Source: a virus (taxonomy: Duplodnaviria; Caudoviricetes). Taken from it: DNA of 35,430 nucleotides. Of the stretch, positions 330 to 33,800 are shown in pieces; position 1 is the stretch's first letter, and each line of letters opens with the position of its first letter. The notes below the pieces were generated by a model that saw nothing but the letters and a program-made list of their open reading frames with translations, did not search any database and was not told the DNA's origin. The position numbers were made by a program, and so were the translations under genes. The DNA is taken from the IMG/VR virus record IMGVR_UViG_3300025816_000041, positions 1 through 35,430 of that record, one strand, 5' to 3'.

Positions 330-1031
330 ATGAAGAAAAAAATTATTTCCGCAGGAATTAAAGCAGCCACCAAAGCATACAAAAAAGCAGCAGCCAAAAA
401 TGTAGTGAAGCCCGTTCGCACCACAAAGGCTAAAGCAAAGGCCGCAAAGCCCGTTCGCACCACAAATGCTAAACCAAGGGTAGCTAAAGTAAAATTAACA
501 AAGACCCAGCTAAAGCAAATGCAGGATCTTCATAAATCGGTAAAAGCGGGGGTAGCTAAACGCACCGCAAAAGCCAAAGCCAAAGCCAAAGCCACCAATG
601 TACTAAAGCCAAAGGCAAATGCATTTAAGGGCGTTCAGTCCGCTGGTGCAGTAAAAAATGCTCCAGTCCGAGCAGCACGAGCCGCACGTGGCAATAAGAT
701 ACTTGCGGGAACCGCAGGGGCTCTTGGGGCAGCAGTGGTATATAATAAGAATAAATCCTCTTCCAGAGCAGCCGCTAGTCCAGCGGCAGTTGCCCCGAAG
801 AAAAAACCCACAAATGTAGTGATGCCCCGAAAGGCAGCACCCAAGAAAGCAGCACCCAAGAAGGCAGCACCCAAGAAGGCAGCACCCAAGGCAAAATCAA
901 AACCCCGTGCAGCTAGCTTTACTCCAACCGCAAAAAGAACACCCCTAAGTGTTTCCAAGGGAAAGAAAAAAGTCGGATACGTAAAATCCAATCGTTCGGG
1001 GCGTGGAGGTTTACGCACCCGTGGTCGCTAA
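330..1031 (+). CDS. Histone H1-like Lys/Ala/Pro-rich basic protein 1
   Basis: 233 aa, extremely K/A/R-rich and almost free of acidic residues; KAAPK tandem repeats; one Gly/Ala hydrophobic stretch (ILAGTAGALGAAVVY). Confidence 0.75.
   Translation: MKKKIISAGIKAATKAYKKAAAKNVVKPVRTTKAKAKAAKPVRTTNAKPRVAKVKLTKTQLKQMQDLHKSVKAGVAKRTAKAKAKAKATNVLKPKANAFKGVQSAGAVKNAPVRAARAARGNKILAGTAGALGAAVVYNKNKSSSRAAASPAAVAPKKKPTNVVMPRKAAPKKAAPKKAAPKKAAPKAKSKPRAASFTPTAKRTPLSVSKGKKKVGYVKSNRSGRGGLRTRGR
831..890 (+). repeat. 15-bp tandem repeat x4 (AAGGCAGCACCCAAG) encoding KAAPK
   Basis: Directly visible in the sequence. Confidence 0.9.
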
Positions 1032-1048
1032 TTTAGCAGAATAATACA

Positions 1049-1960
1049 ATGAAGAAAAAAGCAATAAGTGCAATCGTAAAGGGTGTTCAAAAAGTAGCTA
1101 AGGCATCCGCTAAGAAGAAGGCAGCAGCCGCCGTGAAGAAAGTGTCCTCTGGTGCAAAAACAACAGCCAAGACCAAGAATGTTCGATCCAAAATTGGTTT
1201 AGATAGAAAAGCAGTTTTAAGGGAGGGATTTGATCCAGCAAAATCAGCGGCAGCCAAGGCAAAGGGCGTAAAGGTTACACCAATTAAGAAAGCCCTAACA
1301 CCCGCTCAAAGAAAAGCCAATGATGCCGCAGCTAAGGCTGGTAAACGAGTATCGGCTAACCCCAAGGTAGCTAAGAAAGCAGCTAAAAAGGTAGCTAAGA
1401 AAGCAGCTAAAAAGGTAGCTAAGAAAGCACCAGTCAAAAAGGTGGCTAAAAAAGCACCAGTCAAAAAGGCAGCAGCTAAAAAAGCACCAACTAAAAGGGT
1501 AGCAGCCAAGAAAGTGCCCAAGAAGACAGCACCCAAGGGGCCAAAGCAGGGACCCAAGACAGCAGCGGAGTCCGTAAAGGGAAAGCCATTGCAGGGACCA
1601 TCTAACTACAAGGGTAGCTTTTTTAAGAACAAAGAAAGTGCACTCAATAAGTCCAAATCTAAGTTCATGAACTCCAAGGGCAGGGGCAAAGCCAAGTCTA
1701 AATCTGGGGAATCCGCACGCCAAGCTGGATATAGAGCTGGTCGGGCAAGTGTAGGTGGAAAAGCAGCCAAGAAGGTCAAGAAGGGTGCGGGCAAAGTTCT
1801 GAAGTCCCGCATAACGCAGGGTGTCGGTGCTGGATATGCAGGTGCAAAAATGGGTAGTAGGGGTAATGGGGGATCAAGTAATCCTCAATCAAGCAAATAC
1901 TTTACGGAAGCCGAACTACAAGCCGCAAAAGCTCGTGTAAGAGCAAATCGAAACCGTTAA
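1049..1960 (+). CDS. Histone H1-like Lys/Ala-rich basic protein 2
   Basis: 303 aa with KKAAKKVA/KKAPVKK repeats. Its N-terminus (MKKKAISAIVK) resembles that of the upstream protein (MKKKIISAGIK). Confidence 0.75.
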   Translation: MKKKAISAIVKGVQKVAKASAKKKAAAAVKKVSSGAKTTAKTKNVRSKIGLDRKAVLREGFDPAKSAAAKAKGVKVTPIKKALTPAQRKANDAAAKAGKRVSANPKVAKKAAKKVAKKAAKKVAKKAPVKKVAKKAPVKKAAAKKAPTKRVAAKKVPKKTAPKGPKQGPKTAAESVKGKPLQGPSNYKGSFFKNKESALNKSKSKFMNSKGRGKAKSKSGESARQAGYRAGRASVGGKAAKKVKKGAGKVLKSRITQGVGAGYAGAKMGSRGNGGSSNPQSSKYFTEAELQAAKARVRANRNR

Positions 1961-25492: not shown

Positions 25493-25936
25493 CTATATTA
25501 GGTTGTTGTTTGTAGCTGCCTTGCTGGTAGCTTGAGAGTCTTTTCCGTGCTTGTTTGTAGCATCCGCGTCTTTACAGTCGTCGATACAAAGCAGTCCATT
25601 GAGAGCATACTTTCGAGCATAGGATGAGGAGCTACCAGTAATTTGGCTTTCGTCCATACCTTTTTTTGTTTCTGCTTCACGAGCAAACCCCACGGAGTCA
25701 GCGATTCTTGTGCCGTCGCTCAATAACATTGCAATCGATTTTACATATACACGACCCTCAATGCTTACGACATCATCGCTAACAATTAACGCACAATTGT
25801 GCTTTTTAAGTAAAGGCTTTACAGCCTCTAAAATATCTTCGGCACTGCGGTATGCGTAGTTGCCAAAGTTATTGCGTTGTCCCTTGGGAGCTTTTAACTC
25901 CGTTTGGATTTCTGATAGTATGTTTTTATTTTCCAT
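25493..25936 (-). CDS. erf: ERF-family single-strand annealing protein
   Basis: IQ.ELKAPKGQ.N.FG.Y.YRSAEDILEAVKPLL and Q.TGS.SSYARKYAL.GL..IDD.KDAD. Confidence 0.9.
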   Translation of the reverse strand: MENKNILSEIQTELKAPKGQRNNFGNYAYRSAEDILEAVKPLLKKHNCALIVSDDVVSIEGRVYVKSIAMLLSDGTRIADSVGFAREAETKKGMDESQITGSSSSYARKYALNGLLCIDDCKDADATNKHGKDSQATSKAATNNNLI

Positions 25937-26366: not shown

Positions 26367-26547
26367 GTTTTTCTATATCGGTTATTGTTATGATTAGGTT
26401 ACGCTTAGTCGCCATAGTAGTTTCTTTGCCTTTTCTGGCTTTGCCAAAAGCAAACTTGATGGCGTTCGCCTCCGAGTTAGCTATCTTCCAAGTCCCGTGA
26501 ACAAAGTCCCTACCGAACTCCCTATACTTTATTAGATAAGCTTTCAC
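26278..26547 (-). CDS. Hypothetical protein
   Basis: Fills the gap between exonuclease and endo VII; GTG at 26547 overlaps the upstream TAG; 3' end overlaps endo VII by 89 bp. Confidence 0.5.
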   Translation of the reverse strand: MKAYLIKYREFGRDFVHGTWKIANSEANAIKFAFGKARKGKETTMATKRNLIITITDIEKHEVSKAFPISPIPKRESTKGVSSDEDWML

Positions 26548-27302
26548 TAGACATTCATGAAGTCCATCCAATATAATTCGGAGGTTAGCTTGAAGCGTTC
26601 AATGCCCTTCTGCATTTGCTTCCAAGTCCACTCCTTGTGATAATGCTTCTTGGATCTAATATCCACGCACACACTCATGATTGTAGGTAGATACTCTAAG
26701 TCCCACATCCTAGCTAGCATCCAACTCTCGATAGCTAGCTGAGTGCAGTCCTTCTTCTCGTAGAACTTACCACCACGACCCTTGCAGTCACGGCACTTGT
26801 AGTCAGCCATGAAATACTTACCATCAGTTAGCTTGCCAATGAAGTCCACTGAGCCAGCAACCTTAATCTCTTCGTCCCAAGTAATTAACTCACTGGCTAC
26901 GGGTTCGATTCGTTCACCGTTAATGTATTTAATGAAGGGTTCAGCCCACTCATCCCATTCGGAGTTCATCTTGGGTTTCTTGTTAGCTATAATAGCATTC
27001 GTGTGATCCTCCAATCGACCATGAACGGTTGTCCCGAACTCAGAGGATGTTATCTCTTCACCGTCAATGGGAGAAATACGCATACCATACTTACGTGTTT
27101 CAATCTCTCGCTGACTAGCATCGGGAAATTCCCTAGCTAGCTTAATGTATTGCTCTGGAGACCAGATGCCATCCAAAAATGGATCCTTGATAATACCCAT
27201 GACAGTTGTCACCGATGGATAAGCACCGATTTTCTTGGCTTGTGATGGTGTTGCGGCTTTCGTTAGAAAGGGTTCGTTGTCGCAGTTGTAGAAATGGCTC
27301 AT
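26547..27302 (-). CDS. PD-(D/E)xK exonuclease (lambda-exo/Cas4-like fold)
   Basis: PSVTT, GT.VH..LE, E........AGSVD......DYK and QLA motifs; near ERF. Confidence 0.8.
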   Translation of the reverse strand: MSHFYNCDNEPFLTKAATPSQAKKIGAYPSVTTVMGIIKDPFLDGIWSPEQYIKLAREFPDASQREIETRKYGMRISPIDGEEITSSEFGTTVHGRLEDHTNAIIANKKPKMNSEWDEWAEPFIKYINGERIEPVASELITWDEEIKVAGSVDFIGKLTDGKYFMADYKCRDCKGRGGKFYEKKDCTQLAIESWMLARMWDLEYLPTIMSVCVDIRSKKHYHKEWTWKQMQKGIERFKLTSELYWMDFMNV

Positions 27303-28156: not shown

Positions 28157-28223
28157 TGGTGGAGGTGGGAGGAGTTGAACCCCCGTGTCCTAGATAATCT
28201 AGGATCGAAACCCTTTCACCCCC
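28157..28223 (-). ncRNA. Mini-tmRNA: tRNA-like domain only (67 nt)
   Basis: GGGGGTG-AAAGGGTTTCGA-TCCTAGA TTA TCTAGGA-CAC-GGGGG TTCAACT CCTCC-CACCTCC-ACCA: 7-bp acceptor stem with G3.U70 and A73, stemless tmRNA-type D-loop, T-arm and encoded CCA. Confidence 0.85.
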
Positions 28224-28337: not shown

Positions 28338-28368
28338 AAAAAAAGCCCGCACCCCGAAGGATGCGAGC
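28338..28368 (-). terminator. Intrinsic terminator closing the early operon
   Basis: GCTCGCATCC-TTCG-GGGTGCGGGC followed by T7 on the minus strand. Confidence 0.9.
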
Positions 28369-28402
28369 TGAGTTTTTTCCATTTTGGAAACAGTTGAGAT
28401 GA

Positions 28403-29411: not shown

Positions 29412-29717
29412 TGGTATTGTAGCTAGCTAGCTACTACCAACTATCACCATTGTCTGGTAGGTGGTCGAAGTGATTGTGAGCATCCCTGTAGCCTTCTTCA
29501 GCTTGAGGATAAGCTGCCTTTGCTTGTTCAACAGTGTCATACATATCCATGAATTGCTTCATGGTCTGACCCTCAAGCACTGACCCCTTCGGGTATTCCC
29601 CGAATTGATAAACGCTGAATTGACCGTATTGGTTTTTTTCGATTGTGGTTTCCATTTTATTAAAGGCGGTTTTACTGATCCGCAAACAGTTTGGTATTGT
29701 AGCTAGCTAGCTAGCTA
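29412..29717. repeat. 22-bp direct repeat TGGTATTGTAGCTAGCTAGCTA (29412-29433 and 29692-29713)
   Basis: Both copies are intergenic, directly after stop codons of minus-strand genes. Confidence 0.85.
29434..29655 (-). CDS. Hypothetical protein (73 aa)
   Basis: ATG at 29655 (METTIEKNQ) preferred over the TTG start. Confidence 0.7.
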   Translation of the reverse strand: METTIEKNQYGQFSVYQFGEYPKGSVLEGQTMKQFMDMYDTVEQAKAAYPQAEEGYRDAHNHFDHLPDNGDSW

Positions 29718-30161: not shown

Positions 30162-31664
30162 TTAGTCCTTGAGGATTTCACGGAGCAGACGCTGGGCTAG
30201 CTCATTGGCATCACTTGCGATCACACTGCGACCGAAGTGACCATCCATCCGCTTGCGACCCGCTTCGAGAGCATACTGACAGGGCTCGATGTAAGCCGCG
30301 ATAGCATTGATACCCATGTTGCGATAGCTCTTGGTATCGATGTCGTTATCACGTAGATAGCTATCAGTGAATACAACAGTTGTGGTGGATGCCTTGATCT
30401 TGGCGATGTGCGTCTTCATGCACGCCATGATGCCCTCGCCATTGCCAGACGGAAAGCGATCATTGACCCACTTGTCGGTATCATCCTTGCGAACCACATA
30501 GCTCTTGCATTTGTGATTGAATGAGCACGACAGGATTAGGTTGAGATCGATCAACTGCCTTTTAGCTAGCTCACGAAATGCTAGCACGAACTCACGACCA
30601 CCATGCAATGCCCATGCATCACGCATGGAACCACTCATGTCAACGATCATGGTCACGCTACGCTTGCCATTGCTACGCTTGCGATTGATGAATGCACGAT
30701 CACTGCCGCACATCGCCGCATTAGCGTGCAAGCGTGTTCCATTGCACGCTAGGCGATTGCGAGTGACCCTAGCTGACTGAACGATGCTCTTCATGCATCG
30801 AGCGATGCGACCAACTTGCTGACCATTGATAGGCAACTCCTTAGAATACCATTGCTCTTTAGGTGTGTGCTGGGAATCAGCCTTCATCTTGTCCAGACCA
30901 GTTGGATTGATCATTGGCTGGTCGGACTGCTTCTCATCAGACTTACCATTGATCATTGAGTCCGAATACTTTGGATTGATCTCTTTACCGAATAGCTCCA
31001 CCCACTCCTGCACGATGGGTATTAAGCATTGGCTAGTCAGTGCATCGCACGCTCTGCGATAGAATTTAAGGATGACCAAGCGTGTTAGGCGATCCTTACC
31101 CTTGACCGTGACCTTCTCAGTTCCCACCCACTTTGGAACATATGCACTGGCTTGCTTTTTGATGCCAGCTTCATTGGTTTTGATTGCCCATAGTAACGCC
31201 GATGCAGAGTTATATGCCGCATCCACATCTTGGTAGTTGACCCATCTGAATGCACCATCGCCATCCTTGCGTGTAGCACTGGCGTATTCGATGCGGATAT
31301 CCTCGAATAGATTCCACAAGCGATACGGTAGGTTGCGTGCTTCAAGTTGATCAGCTACGTCACTGTCTCGGCAGGTTAGTCTACCGTGCTCTGTCTCATG
31401 TCGGATGACCAGCTCGACAAACTTCTTAAGCTTGGCATCGTTGGCTTTCGTCGATGAGTTGCAGATGGTGTTCAGCTTAGTTCCCACCTTGATGACGTGC
31501 TTGTCGCGTTGGAATGACCAGTTTGCTGTTGGCACGCTGTCATCGATGCTGATGGTGCAACGCTTACCAGTTGCGTTCACCATGCGAGTGAGAACTCCAC
31601 CCTTCTGTCTGCCTACAACCTTACGCTTGCAGGTGCTTATTGCTTTTTTGATTATTGTTTTCAT
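30162..31664 (-). CDS. vWA-domain protein with N-terminal HExxH metallopeptidase-like domain (CobT-like partner)
   Basis: RHETEH...WNLFEDIRIE; MIDAS motif VDMSGSM...VFTD. Confidence 0.8.
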   Translation of the reverse strand: MKTIIKKAISTCKRKVVGRQKGGVLTRMVNATGKRCTISIDDSVPTANWSFQRDKHVIKVGTKLNTICNSSTKANDAKLKKFVELVIRHETEHGRLTCRDSDVADQLEARNLPYRLWNLFEDIRIEYASATRKDGDGAFRWVNYQDVDAAYNSASALLWAIKTNEAGIKKQASAYVPKWVGTEKVTVKGKDRLTRLVILKFYRRACDALTSQCLIPIVQEWVELFGKEINPKYSDSMINGKSDEKQSDQPMINPTGLDKMKADSQHTPKEQWYSKELPINGQQVGRIARCMKSIVQSARVTRNRLACNGTRLHANAAMCGSDRAFINRKRSNGKRSVTMIVDMSGSMRDAWALHGGREFVLAFRELAKRQLIDLNLILSCSFNHKCKSYVVRKDDTDKWVNDRFPSGNGEGIMACMKTHIAKIKASTTTVVFTDSYLRDNDIDTKSYRNMGINAIAAYIEPCQYALEAGRKRMDGHFGRSVIASDANELAQRLLREILKD

Positions 31665-31704: not shown

Positions 31705-33003
31705 CTACGCTAGCATTGTAGCTAGCTCGGCGACACCATTGATGGAATCCAGTGTGACATCACCAGTATCTGAGTCCCATGCTTTGAGACCATCGAGACC
31801 ATTGGCACACATCCACATCAGCACGCTCGCCCCAGTGTTGTCACTGCTATGAGTGCATGCTGTTTCAAGGTTGCGGATGTCCAAGGATGTCAGCAGTTGT
31901 CCGCTGGCTTTCATCTCCCGACTGCGTTCCATTGCCATTGCAAATCGACCACCCAGATCAGCCGCATCAGTGATACCAAACTTGGTAGCTACGCTGGTAG
32001 CTATGTTGGCGACCATGGCTGAATCGAATTGCACGTGCTTGAACAGGAATCGTGATCTGAATGCTTCTGGTGGAATCACTTCGCATAGGTTAGTTGCACA
32101 AATGATATGCAGATTGTCCATATCACAGGTCAGAGTTTCAAGCACACCTTTGTCATTGTGCTTGGTCGTTAGCTTATAGCGTTTGATGCCATCCGCATCT
32201 GGCTGTGGTGCTAGGAAATCCAGCATTTTCTCCATGACCTTGGGCGATAAGCGGAAGACTTCATCCAAAAAGAATAGCACGCTCTCACCTTTACTGGCTA
32301 ATCGCACTGCGTTAGCTAGCTTGCCATCTGATACGATGAAACCATTGCCATCTTCTCTGGGTGTCGCACCACCAATGATCTCATGCCATTCGTCCATGTC
32401 ATCAGAGCATCCATGTGTGATACAATGATCGTATGATTGCCCCAGCAGTGAGATGCTGTAGCTTTTACCATAGCTAGGTGGTGCTGAGATGCACACCTTG
32501 GTTGGATTCGCTGATCCACTATCGTAATATGGCTGGATCAATTCCAGTATGGGATTATTGCCAGATGCCACAGCCACAGCCAATGGTAGTCTGCTGGATG
32601 TCCCACCCTTCATTGCGTCCGCAATCTTGTCCAGTGTATCAGCCAAGGGCGACAGTGCATCCACTTGATTCTGCATTTTTTCTAGGCTTGGCGACACATC
32701 GTTAGCAATTGCGTCCTGCACTGCATCGCGGACTTTATCCATGTCTACGGATGCTGATCTACCTCCCAGTAAATCCTGCAATGCACGTAGCGTGTCCTCT
32801 GCCTCTGTCGATGCTGGTGCTGGTGCTGGTGCTGGTGCTGGTGTGCTATCACCCATGACAGCCACAGGATCACCACCCAAATCAGTGACCCACTGTTTGA
32901 GTTGTGCTTGGGACGCATCTGCTATCTGGCGACCAGTTATGCCCAGTGTGCTGGATGCGTTGTTGCTTGTTAGGTATTGGCGTAGTTTTGTATTGTTATT
33001 CAT
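31705..33003 (-). CDS. MoxR/CbbQ/CobS-type AAA+ ATPase
   Basis: Walker A APPSYGKS, Walker B FFLDE, sensor ATN, arginine finger AFRSRF; (AP)n linker and coiled coil in the N-terminus; adjacent to the vWA gene. Confidence 0.85.
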   Translation of the reverse strand: MNNNTKLRQYLTSNNASSTLGITGRQIADASQAQLKQWVTDLGGDPVAVMGDSTPAPAPAPAPASTEAEDTLRALQDLLGGRSASVDMDKVRDAVQDAIANDVSPSLEKMQNQVDALSPLADTLDKIADAMKGGTSSRLPLAVAVASGNNPILELIQPYYDSGSANPTKVCISAPPSYGKSYSISLLGQSYDHCITHGCSDDMDEWHEIIGGATPREDGNGFIVSDGKLANAVRLASKGESVLFFLDEVFRLSPKVMEKMLDFLAPQPDADGIKRYKLTTKHNDKGVLETLTCDMDNLHIICATNLCEVIPPEAFRSRFLFKHVQFDSAMVANIATSVATKFGITDAADLGGRFAMAMERSREMKASGQLLTSLDIRNLETACTHSSDNTGASVLMWMCANGLDGLKAWDSDTGDVTLDSINGVAELATMLA

Positions 33004-33038
33004 ATCGTTATCTATTGGTATTTTTGTTAGTTGCTGAT

Positions 33039-33089
33039 GGTCTCATCAGTGACAGAGATACTGCCAGACGCACTCAGTGCGTTTCGACC
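33039..33089 (-). ncRNA. Hammerhead ribozyme, type II, GUC cleavage site
   Basis: GGTC-GAA-ACGCAC TGA GTGCGT-C^-TGGCAG TATCT CTGTCA-CTGATGA-GACC: complete core, all three stems paired, canonical G10.1-C11.1. Confidence 0.9.
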
Positions 33090-33091
33090 TG

Positions 33092-33262
33092 TTAATCATT
33101 TTTGTATGTTTCTCCATCGATAGACCAAGTGCATGAGACTGGGCATTTGAAGTGTTTTCTCATTGTCTTCTGCATGAGCAGTGCATCTTCCACTGAGTGG
33201 AACCAGATTGAGAATACATTACCGCTTTCACCTTGTCGTTGTGCTGAGTATAAGAATTTCAT
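33092..33262 (-). CDS. 56-aa protein flanked by two hammerhead ribozymes (not in ORF track)
   Basis: MKFLYSAQRQGESGNVFSIWFHSVEDALLMQKTMRKHFKCPVSCTWSIDGETYKND; shares its leader and start context with the AAA+ gene. Confidence 0.75.
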   Translation of the reverse strand: MKFLYSAQRQGESGNVFSIWFHSVEDALLMQKTMRKHFKCPVSCTWSIDGETYKND

Positions 33263-33294
33263 ATCGTTATCTATTGGTATTTTTGTTAGTTGGC

Positions 33295-33354
33295 TAGATC
33301 ATCAGACCAGTGGAGCCACTCACTGGTTACGCATCTCCGAAATGCGTTTCACTA
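33295..33354 (-). ncRNA. Hammerhead ribozyme, type II variant, GUA cleavage site
   Basis: TAGT-GAA-ACGCATTT CGG AGATGCGT-A^-ACCAGTG AGTGGCTC CACTGGT-CTGATGA-TCTA: core intact, stems I and III strong, stem II short with U.U at 10.1/11.1. Confidence 0.75.
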
Positions 33355-33360
33355 TTTGTC

Positions 33361-33622
33361 GATGGATTCCAACACCATCCTCCGTGCTTTGCTGGTCTTG
33401 GCTGGATGTGGTCATGGCATACTCTGCTAGACATCCGCTTCTCAACTCTGCACTTCTCAGTCGGCACTCGCATTTCTCAATGGTCAAAGTGGGAACTTCG
33501 CTTTCCCGATCACTCAATGAGCTTGGGTAGGAGTTGCGATTTCCTATGAATCAGAGTAGCGTGAGCCACCCTCGATTGCCACCGTAATGACAACCTAACT
33601 AAAGAACAGACTGCATTCAATC
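33361..33622 (-). ncRNA. Candidate multi-hairpin structured leader RNA
   Basis: Consecutive stems GATTG/CAGTC, GGTTGTCA/TGGCAATC, AGGGTGGC/GCTACTCT, TAGGA/TCCTA, GGGAA/TTCCC, GGATGT/ACATCC and GATGG/CCATC, several with G.U pairs favouring the minus strand. Confidence 0.45.
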
Positions 33623-33755
33623 AGCTGTAGCTAGATATGGCGATCATTATTTTCACTTTTTTTCATGCCCATCCATACCGCACTGGCACTGGGCTGGAGC
33701 GAATGCGTAGTTAAAGTGACAGTTATATTGAGCCCAAAGTGACACCATAAAGACG

Positions 33756-33800
33756 GGTAGATAGCTAGGTAGATAGCTAGGTAGATAGACAGGTAGATAG
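33756..33800. repeat. 12-bp tandem repeat GGTAGATAGCTA x3.75
   Basis: Directly visible in the divergent intergenic region. Confidence 0.85.

What the first reader, a model, noticed from the sequence alone, without database searches (positions are those of the whole stretch)
32999..33354. Repeated 'hammerhead + identical leader + ORF' cassette at the head of the early operon
Seen: two type-II hammerheads (33295-33354, cleaving after GUA at 33328; 33039-33089, cleaving after GUC at 33067). Their stems have unrelated sequences but the same topology. Each is followed within a few nt by a perfect 35-nt repeat containing the start codon, giving processed leaders of 65 and 63 nt for the 56-aa ORF and the AAA+ ATPase. 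Established: hammerhead cleavage leaves 5'-OH and 2',3'-cyclic phosphate ends, and 5'-OH ends are poor substrates for 5'-monophosphate-dependent RNases. Inference: the phage self-processes its first polycistronic transcript into standardised, stabilised mRNAs, a natural counterpart of ribozyme insulators and a host-independent analogue of RNase III processing of T7 early RNA.
Basis: partly seen in the sequence, partly recalled or inferred. Interest (0 to 1): 0.85.

Follow-up and report, generated by a model that had tools for sequence, protein, structure and literature searches.

The report
Hammerhead-bordered swappable phage early genes
Two hammerhead ribozyme sequences precede this phage's first early genes, and its relatives carry one to three of them around interchangeable small genes; they likely cut the first message into independently translated pieces, a layout already reported in other phages.

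Summary
Two type II hammerheads lie on the minus strand (predicted cuts 33328/33327 and 33067/33066), each followed by the same 35-nt leader. The first passes Rfam's cut-off; Rfam misses the second, but its stems covary across relatives. All 38 family loci with enough upstream DNA have a hammerhead 58-75 nt before the AAA+ start. The 56-aa gene plus second hammerhead is an optional cassette: arrays hold 0-2 such units from 8 ORF families, and identical AAA+ proteins carry different arrays. The leader identity is not conserved, so it is probably a recombination footprint; the spacing is what is standardised. Best reading: self-cleaving insulators that also serve as recombination joints for accessory genes. 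Cleavage and stabilisation were not shown; public RNA data were uninformative and the host is unknown. Clustered phage hammerheads and the processing idea date from 2011, and this scan has noted similar arrays on other DNA. Extras: a covarying leader RNA starting with a boxA-like motif, and a conserved tail that can pair with the catalytic core.

The parts
33615..33643 (-). Putative sigma-70-type early promoter; weak match here and placed only by alignment to relatives with clearer -35/-10 boxes
   Evidence: positional alignment; not reported by the consensus scan
33601..33607 (-). boxA-like GTTCTTT near the predicted transcript start; present in 32 of 38 loci, the other 6 being truncated upstream
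   Evidence: consensus GYTCTTTAANA from PMC5725501
33351..33607 (-). About 260-nt leader, likely non-coding; its 3' half has covarying helices, a kink-turn-like module (33465-33491, motif recalled) and a GUUGGA-loop hairpin (33361-33379). It would be released as a 280-nt fragment by HH1
   Evidence: no Rfam hit; MFE z-score +0.65, against unusual stability
33288..33354 (-). HH1: type II hammerhead, U10.1-U11.1 stem II start, 5-bp pseudoknot (33314-33318 with 33291-33295); predicted cut 33328/33327
   Evidence: U-U start known in natural hammerheads
33258..33292 (-). 35-nt leader and start codon, copy 1
33092..33262 (-). 56-aa cassette ORF of unknown function, optional in relatives
33034..33089 (-). 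HH2: type II hammerhead with 4-bp stem II, U at position 1.7, and an AUCAG tail (33034-33038) complementary to the CUGAU core; predicted cut 33067/33066
32999..33033 (-). 35-nt leader and start codon, copy 2
31705..33003 (-). AAA+ ATPase, the fixed anchor gene of the array
   Evidence: Pfam PF00004 22.1 bits vs cut-off 21.2; homologues named MoxR-like
30162..31664 (-). 500-aa protein, likely VWA-domain partner of the ATPase
   Evidence: ESM Atlas feature neighbours; no Pfam, PHROG or NCBIfam hit
28344..28369 (-). Intrinsic-terminator-like hairpin, likely end of the early operon
25493..25936 (-). Erf-like ssDNA annealing protein, candidate for short-homology recombination
26547..27302 (-). Exonuclease, candidate partner of Erf

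Best explanation
The head of this phage's early operon is a variable array of small genes, each bordered by hammerhead ribozyme sequences that likely cut the transcript into independently translated units and likely serve as recombination joints for swapping those genes. Shown by sequence: both ribozymes, their fixed spacing, and the gain, loss and exchange of ORF-plus-hammerhead units among relatives. Inferred: each cut leaves the upstream gene a short 3' end closed by the stem III hairpin, and gives the next gene a 5'-OH end with one or two hairpins ahead of an unstructured A-rich initiation region. Expression of a gene would then not depend on what lies upstream, as with the RiboJ insulator. 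Inferred: the repeated leader and ribozyme give 25-60 nt of homology on which the phage's Erf and exonuclease act between co-infecting genomes. Untested: cleavage itself, and whether the 5'-OH end lengthens or shortens mRNA life.
For: 38 of 38 loci with at least 94 nt upstream have a sense-strand hammerhead before AAA+ (41 examined, 3 too short). Cut-to-AUG is 58-75 nt in 64 of 64, and the upstream stop lies 3-11 nt before GAAA in 25 of 26. In 31 distinct HH2-type sequences 99.2% of 492 cells pair and 12 of 16 pairs change on both sides; slid controls pair at 52% or less. 12 array layouts occur among 32 loci, identical AAA+ proteins carry different arrays, and ORF families cross deep clades. 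Stem III and stem I types reassort. One run holds both cassette-less and three-hammerhead forms. In unrelated phages 101 of 127 such hammerheads have a stop 3-12 nt upstream, against 6.8% at random positions. Comparable prophage arrays cleave in vitro and in E. coli (PMC3088659 section 6).
Against: No cleavage or transcription was shown here. Contigs from RNA libraries bridge the HH1 cut site, and in one study also cover the DNA between the divergent operons, so they may be DNA or uncut RNA. The predicted most stable fold of HH2 is the inactive core-pairing hairpin (-20.3 vs -17.7 kcal/mol, tertiary contacts not counted). One array has a leader and ORF with no hammerhead (L069). The syntenic phage C75C1 has no hammerhead. 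4 of 18 consensus hammerheads tested in 2011 were inactive. Loci are related and partly redundant, so counts are not independent events.
Confidence: 0.6

Rival explanations
1. Cleavage marks early messages for rapid decay or sets unequal half-lives, so that early expression is a short pulse.
For: The glmS ribozyme's 5'-OH product is degraded by RNase J1 (PMC3328962 passage). Differing stabilities are an open proposal (PMC6765202). The host's nucleases are unknown.
Against: Each 3' product begins with a hairpin flush with the 5' end, and HH2's product can form a second one; terminal hairpins are linked to higher mRNA levels for RiboJ.
Confidence: 0.15
2. The first hammerhead frees the first gene from a boxA-tethered Nus antitermination loop, as RNase III does for lambda N; later hammerheads are copies that keep each start site free.
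For: GTTCTTT lies just after the -10 box in 32 of 38 loci, 242-363 nt before the first cut, with a structured leader between. Nus complexes at boxA repress translation over a distance, and lambda nutL lies about 200 nt before N (PMC5725501; relief by RNase III from a cited title and recall).
Against: The window does not match the full GYTCTTTAANA consensus; the motif sits at about +1 and could be a promoter element; no N-like protein was identified; it does not by itself explain internal hammerheads.
Confidence: 0.12
3. The hammerhead-plus-leader unit is a mobile repeat that spreads by recombination; cleavage is tolerated but not selected.
For: Leaders are more alike within than between arrays (0.84 vs 0.69); ribozyme parts reassort; C75C1 lacks them.
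Against: Core bases are invariant while stems covary; 12 of 32 loci keep a single hammerhead with no cassette; the model finds only these two in the window.
Confidence: 0.08
4. Tandem cuts release the cassette RNA, which is ligated into a circle or used as a mobile RNA intermediate, as in retrozymes.
For: The 261-nt fragment would have 5'-OH and cyclic-phosphate ends (established chemistry). One contig shows a 'goes back 260' joint.
Against: That joint runs 33289 to 33030 and fits the three-hammerhead DNA variant seen in L049/L061; a circle would join 33067 to 33327. No reverse transcriptase among 30 proteins scanned. No circles were detected for prophage arrays in 2011.
Confidence: 0.05

Closest known systems
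Clustered hammerheads flanking single genes in prophages and phages (Perreault et al. 2011, PMC3088659)
   Same: Type II hammerheads flank individual, non-constant genes; processing into single-gene mRNAs was proposed; a halovirus hammerhead lies just before the first early gene with its 5' end mapped.
   Different: Here a whole family is compared, showing fixed spacing, exchange of ORF-plus-ribozyme units among near-identical genomes, and a structured leader upstream. The sections I read do not treat the ribozymes as recombination joints.
Rfam Hammerhead_II (RF02276)
   Same: HH1 passes the gathering score and has the loop I/3'-tail pseudoknot.
   Different: HH2 is a 4-bp-stem-II subtype with U1.7 and no pseudoknot that the model did not detect; Rfam's gathering mode found no hammerhead in 20 family loci.
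PeSL mobile regulatory cassettes of T4-like phages (Arbiol et al. 2010, PMC2839356; abstract only)
   Same: Repeated expression signals flank non-essential ORFs in variable regions and mediate modular shuffling.
   Different: PeSLs are promoter-terminator units acting at transcription; here the repeat is a ribozyme plus translation start under one upstream promoter.
RiboJ insulator (PMC6206723)
   Same: Ribozyme plus hairpin ahead of the ribosome site gives a uniform 5' end.
   Different: RiboJ is synthetic and placed after a promoter; these are natural, intercistronic, and their effect is unmeasured.
Lambda pL leader (nutL, RNase III site, N) and T7 early RNase III processing (T7 recalled)
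   Same: The early transcript is cut in its leader or between genes; lambda has boxA about 200 nt before the first gene.
   Different: Those use a host enzyme and leave 5'-phosphate ends; no N homologue is identified here.

Membership tests
Type II hammerhead ribozyme | Core CUGANGA, GAAA and NUH in type II order with stems I and III closed | tested here: met
   Both elements; core columns invariant
Type II hammerhead ribozyme | Stem II pairs 5' and 3' flanks | tested here: met
   HH2 4 bp, 100% paired in 31 sequences with 2 of 4 pairs covarying; HH1 U-U then 3 bp, U-U start known
Type II hammerhead ribozyme | [quoted passage not shown] | tested here: inconclusive
   HH1 type: 4-6 bp pseudoknot possible in 13 of 13 distinct sequences but nearly invariant. 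HH2 type: U1.7 in 140 of 142 and A before stem II in 141 of 142, fitting the U1.7-A contact described; not shown structurally
Type II hammerhead ribozyme | Site-specific self-cleavage | not testable with these tools
   Only assembled contigs were available
Rfam RF02276 | Score at or above gathering threshold 37, HH1 | tested here: met
   44.1 bits
Rfam RF02276 | Score at or above gathering threshold 37, HH2 | tested here: not met
   No hit at E<=5
Clustered phage hammerheads | Two or more sense-strand hammerheads flanking single, variable genes in a phage operon | tested here: met
PeSL mobile regulatory cassettes | Repeat contains a sigma-70 promoter and a terminator stem-loop | tested here: not met
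   No promoter- or terminator-like site within 32999-33354
PeSL mobile regulatory cassettes | Gene gains and losses bounded by the repeat | tested here: met
Integron-like cassette array | Site-specific integrase in the genome | tested here: not met
   None among 30 proteins scanned against PHROGs, which include every ORF of 300 aa or more
Retrozyme or circular RNA element | Cut-site-to-cut-site circular junction | tested here: inconclusive
   Not seen in contigs of 5 runs, which drop rare forms
boxA/nut antitermination site | GYTCTTTAANA consensus | tested here: inconclusive
   7-nt core conserved, tail variable and not matching in the window
boxA/nut antitermination site | NusB/NusE binding | not testable with these tools
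   Needs a binding assay

The most novel reading that the evidence does not exclude
An all-RNA control system for a phage accessory-gene array. A boxA-led structured leader recruits host Nus factors and the first hammerhead replaces RNase III in freeing the first gene. Each internal hammerhead is a switch: its AUCAG tail can lock the catalytic core, so cutting is tuned by the ribosome terminating 3-11 nt upstream. The same unit works as a recombinase-free cassette joint.
Probability: 0.15. Interest if true: 0.75.

Novelty: new member of a known kind. Interest (0 to 1): 0.43.

Why it matters
[quoted passage not shown] This family supplies near-identical genomes with one, two or three hammerheads and tight spacing rules, which makes the insulator, stability and shuffling hypotheses directly testable. 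It also points to a common hammerhead subtype that Rfam's standard mode overlooks (about 360 viral stretches estimated for one stem II sequence alone). The basic arrangement is not new.

Tried and rejected
RNA evidence: 5 of 8 listed runs held part of the stretch, all as contigs. Four runs of one study cover genes and the intergenic DNA alike, so DNA carry-over is likely. One run of a second study gave one contig over the leader and HH1 only, bridging the cut; the uncovered parts are no evidence. No start or end pile-ups can be read from contigs. RNA circle reading of the 'goes back' joint: rejected (fits the three-hammerhead variant). Host: no AAA+ relative in GTDB contigs or cultured phages; the tmRNA-like 5' motif hit two unrelated MAGs; the closest annotated phage, C75C1, has no host and no paper was found. 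Function of the 56-aa ORF: no Pfam, PHROG, NCBIfam or homologue hit; Atlas hits below 0.9. Other cassette ORFs: 2 of 9 had weak hits to unknown-function PHROGs. Pseudoknot for HH2: none conserved. A short reading frame from the AUG inside the core: frame and stop differ between relatives (read), dropped. Leader RNA outside the family: one motif gave 14 loci, 11 of them contigs already fetched by AAA+ homology and 3 with the same leader; of 119 hits to a second motif, 10 had the inner hairpin and the 8 with a downstream hammerhead are family-type sequences. More hammerheads in the window: none by descriptor or custom model.

Full report
Observation. The window is a near-complete phage genome with head, terminase, DnaB, Erf and exonuclease genes. 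A type II hammerhead descriptor gives exactly two hits, both on the minus strand, with cleavage nucleotides at 33328 and 33067; 60 simulated windows gave 4 hits in total. HH1 passes RF02276 at 44.1 bits (cut-off 37) with permissive filters but not in the whole-window gathering run. HH2 has no Rfam hit. The 35-nt repeat is exact, and the leaders are 65 and 63 nt. HH1 starts stem II with a U-U pair, known from natural hammerheads (PMC3088659 passage), and can form a 5-bp pseudoknot; 13 of 13 distinct sequences of this subtype can form 4-6 bp. HH2 has a 4-bp stem II and a U at position 1.7.

Relatives. AAA+ searches of viral and metagenome contigs gave loci at 47-100% identity. I analysed the window and 40 loci, dropping re-fetches of the same contig, the window's own record and loci whose gene starts at the contig edge. 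Three had under 70 nt upstream and no hammerhead. All 38 others have one directly before the AAA+ gene; they form 34 distinct arrays. Some are near-identical, so counts are not independent. For 31 distinct HH2-type sequences, 99.2% of 492 cells pair and 12 of 16 pairs change on both sides. No shuffle of 500 reached the covariation score, and slid controls pair at 52% or less; relatedness inflates the shuffle test. Rfam's gathering mode found no hammerhead in 20 of these loci.

The unit is a cassette. Among 32 loci whose operon head is present, 12 have a single hammerhead and 20 have one or two extra ORF-plus-hammerhead units, in 12 layouts. The ORFs fall into 8 families, with no functional match among 9 representatives. 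L003 and L049 have identical AAA+ proteins but different arrays, L012 and L063 differ in cassette at zero branch length, and five families occur in well-separated clades. Stem III and stem I types occur in mixed combinations. One sequencing run holds a cassette-less joint (33021 to 33280) and the three-hammerhead form side by side. Spacing is fixed: 58-75 nt from cut to AUG in 64 of 64, and 3-11 nt from the upstream stop to GAAA in 25 of 26. The exception, L069, has a leader and ORF with no ribozyme. Leader sequence is not fixed: 63-100% within arrays, mean 0.84 over 29 pairs against 0.69 over 874 between-array pairs. A-rich, G-poor starts are common across the window's genes. The perfect repeat is therefore best read as a recent recombination footprint (inference).

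The layout is general. A pattern for HH2's stem II and core returned 124 viral loci from 22 of 64 parts of the collection, with about 360 stretches estimated (full flanks were fetched for 80 loci only). They hold 142 distinct hammerheads, 10 in family-related loci. Outside the family, 101 of 127 have a stop 3-12 nt upstream against 6.8% at random positions, and 20 of 104 loci hold two or more. U1.7 occurs in 140 of 142 and an A before stem II in 141 of 142, fitting the U1.7-A Hoogsteen contact described in PMC11875169 (passages).

Two further features. First, all 31 HH2-type sequences carry UCAG within 10 nt after the core. In HH2 this gives a 6-bp hairpin with the core, predicted 2.6 kcal/mol more stable than the active secondary structure, tertiary contacts not counted. 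Outside the family AUCAG follows stem II in 12 of 130, against 0.32 in shuffles (maximum 3 of 2000 shuffles); two of the 12 resemble the family. It may be a second 5' hairpin after cleavage or an attenuator before it. Second, a leader of about 220-340 nt lies before the first hammerhead and starts with GTTCTTT just after the -10 box in 32 of 38 loci; the six others are truncated within 405 nt. Its 3' half has covarying helices: 21 of 42 predicted pairs change on both sides in 11 sequences, which represent only two or three lineages. Against this, the window's leader folds no better than shuffles (z +0.65). It has no Rfam match and appears confined to the family. The motif matches the boxA core but not the full consensus (PMC5725501 passages).

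Mechanism. Most likely the ribozymes cut co-transcriptionally, releasing the leader RNA, a 261-nt one-gene message and a polycistron running from AAA+ to the terminator-like site at 28344-28369. Each start site would then sit behind a hairpin-capped 5' end and be independent of upstream sequence, so any small gene can be inserted. The repeats would supply homology for Erf-type recombination. These steps are inferred. Stabilisation is plausible (RiboJ raises mRNA about twofold; PMC6206723 passages) but not general, since RNase J1 degrades the 5'-OH glmS product (PMC3328962 passages). That 5'-OH ends activate RNase E poorly, and T7 early RNase III processing, are recalled. The host is unknown. 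RNA-library contigs gave no evidence for or against cleavage. The syntenic phage C75C1 lacks hammerheads.

Prior art. PMC3088659 (section 6, first part of the Discussion and passages read; supplements not read) reports clustered hammerheads flanking variable prophage genes, proposes processing into single-gene mRNAs, shows cleavage in vitro and in E. coli, and cites a halovirus early 5' end mapped at a hammerhead. PMC6765202 (passages) calls the purpose unresolved. PMC2839356 (abstract) describes shuffling by promoter-terminator repeats. PMC13725137 (abstract and passages) links self-cleavage to translation in eukaryotic RNA viruses. Searches listed no paper on hammerheads as recombination joints in phage arrays or on the core-pairing tail; the library lacks most subscription papers. 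Earlier notes of this scan describe similar arrays on other genomes; none matched this sequence or genome.

Verdict. Real and well conserved; a new member of a known kind, with unusually clear comparative evidence of cassette exchange. Interest 0.43.

Noticed in passing
window 28157-28223 (-): A 67-nt tmRNA/tRNA-like element ending in CCA, without the tag-coding part, sits between a promoter-like sequence and the first gene of the second (replication) operon; also in L034, L042 and L044. It may be a second RNA processing signal at an operon head, cut by host tRNA nucleases.
   Followed up: partly
L042:744-812: Hybrid hammerhead with an internal-type stem III and a head-type stem I and pseudoknot; a third, truncated hammerhead lies at the contig edge.
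   Followed up: partly
L069:2050-2300: A cassette ORF preceded by the family leader but no hammerhead.
   Followed up: partly
L207 1660-1975; L060 2686-2904; L042 468-743: Cassette ORFs include an apparent fusion of two families (L207), a MORN-like repeat protein and a glycine-rich hydrophobic protein (both judged by eye).
   Followed up: no
window 330-1960 (+): Two ORFs with lysine/alanine-rich KKAAPK-type repeats, reminiscent of histone-like DNA-binding tails (likeness recalled; no Pfam hit).
   Followed up: no
window 29412-29433, 29692-29713, 33756-33800: Repeated AGCT-rich intergenic motifs: a perfect 22-nt pair ahead of two later early genes, and short tandem repeats upstream of the promoter.
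   Followed up: no
L080-L203: Many unrelated phages carry the same hammerhead subtype with Shine-Dalgarno-type leaders, sometimes repeated within an array (L146, L153, L154, L159, L168).
   Followed up: partly
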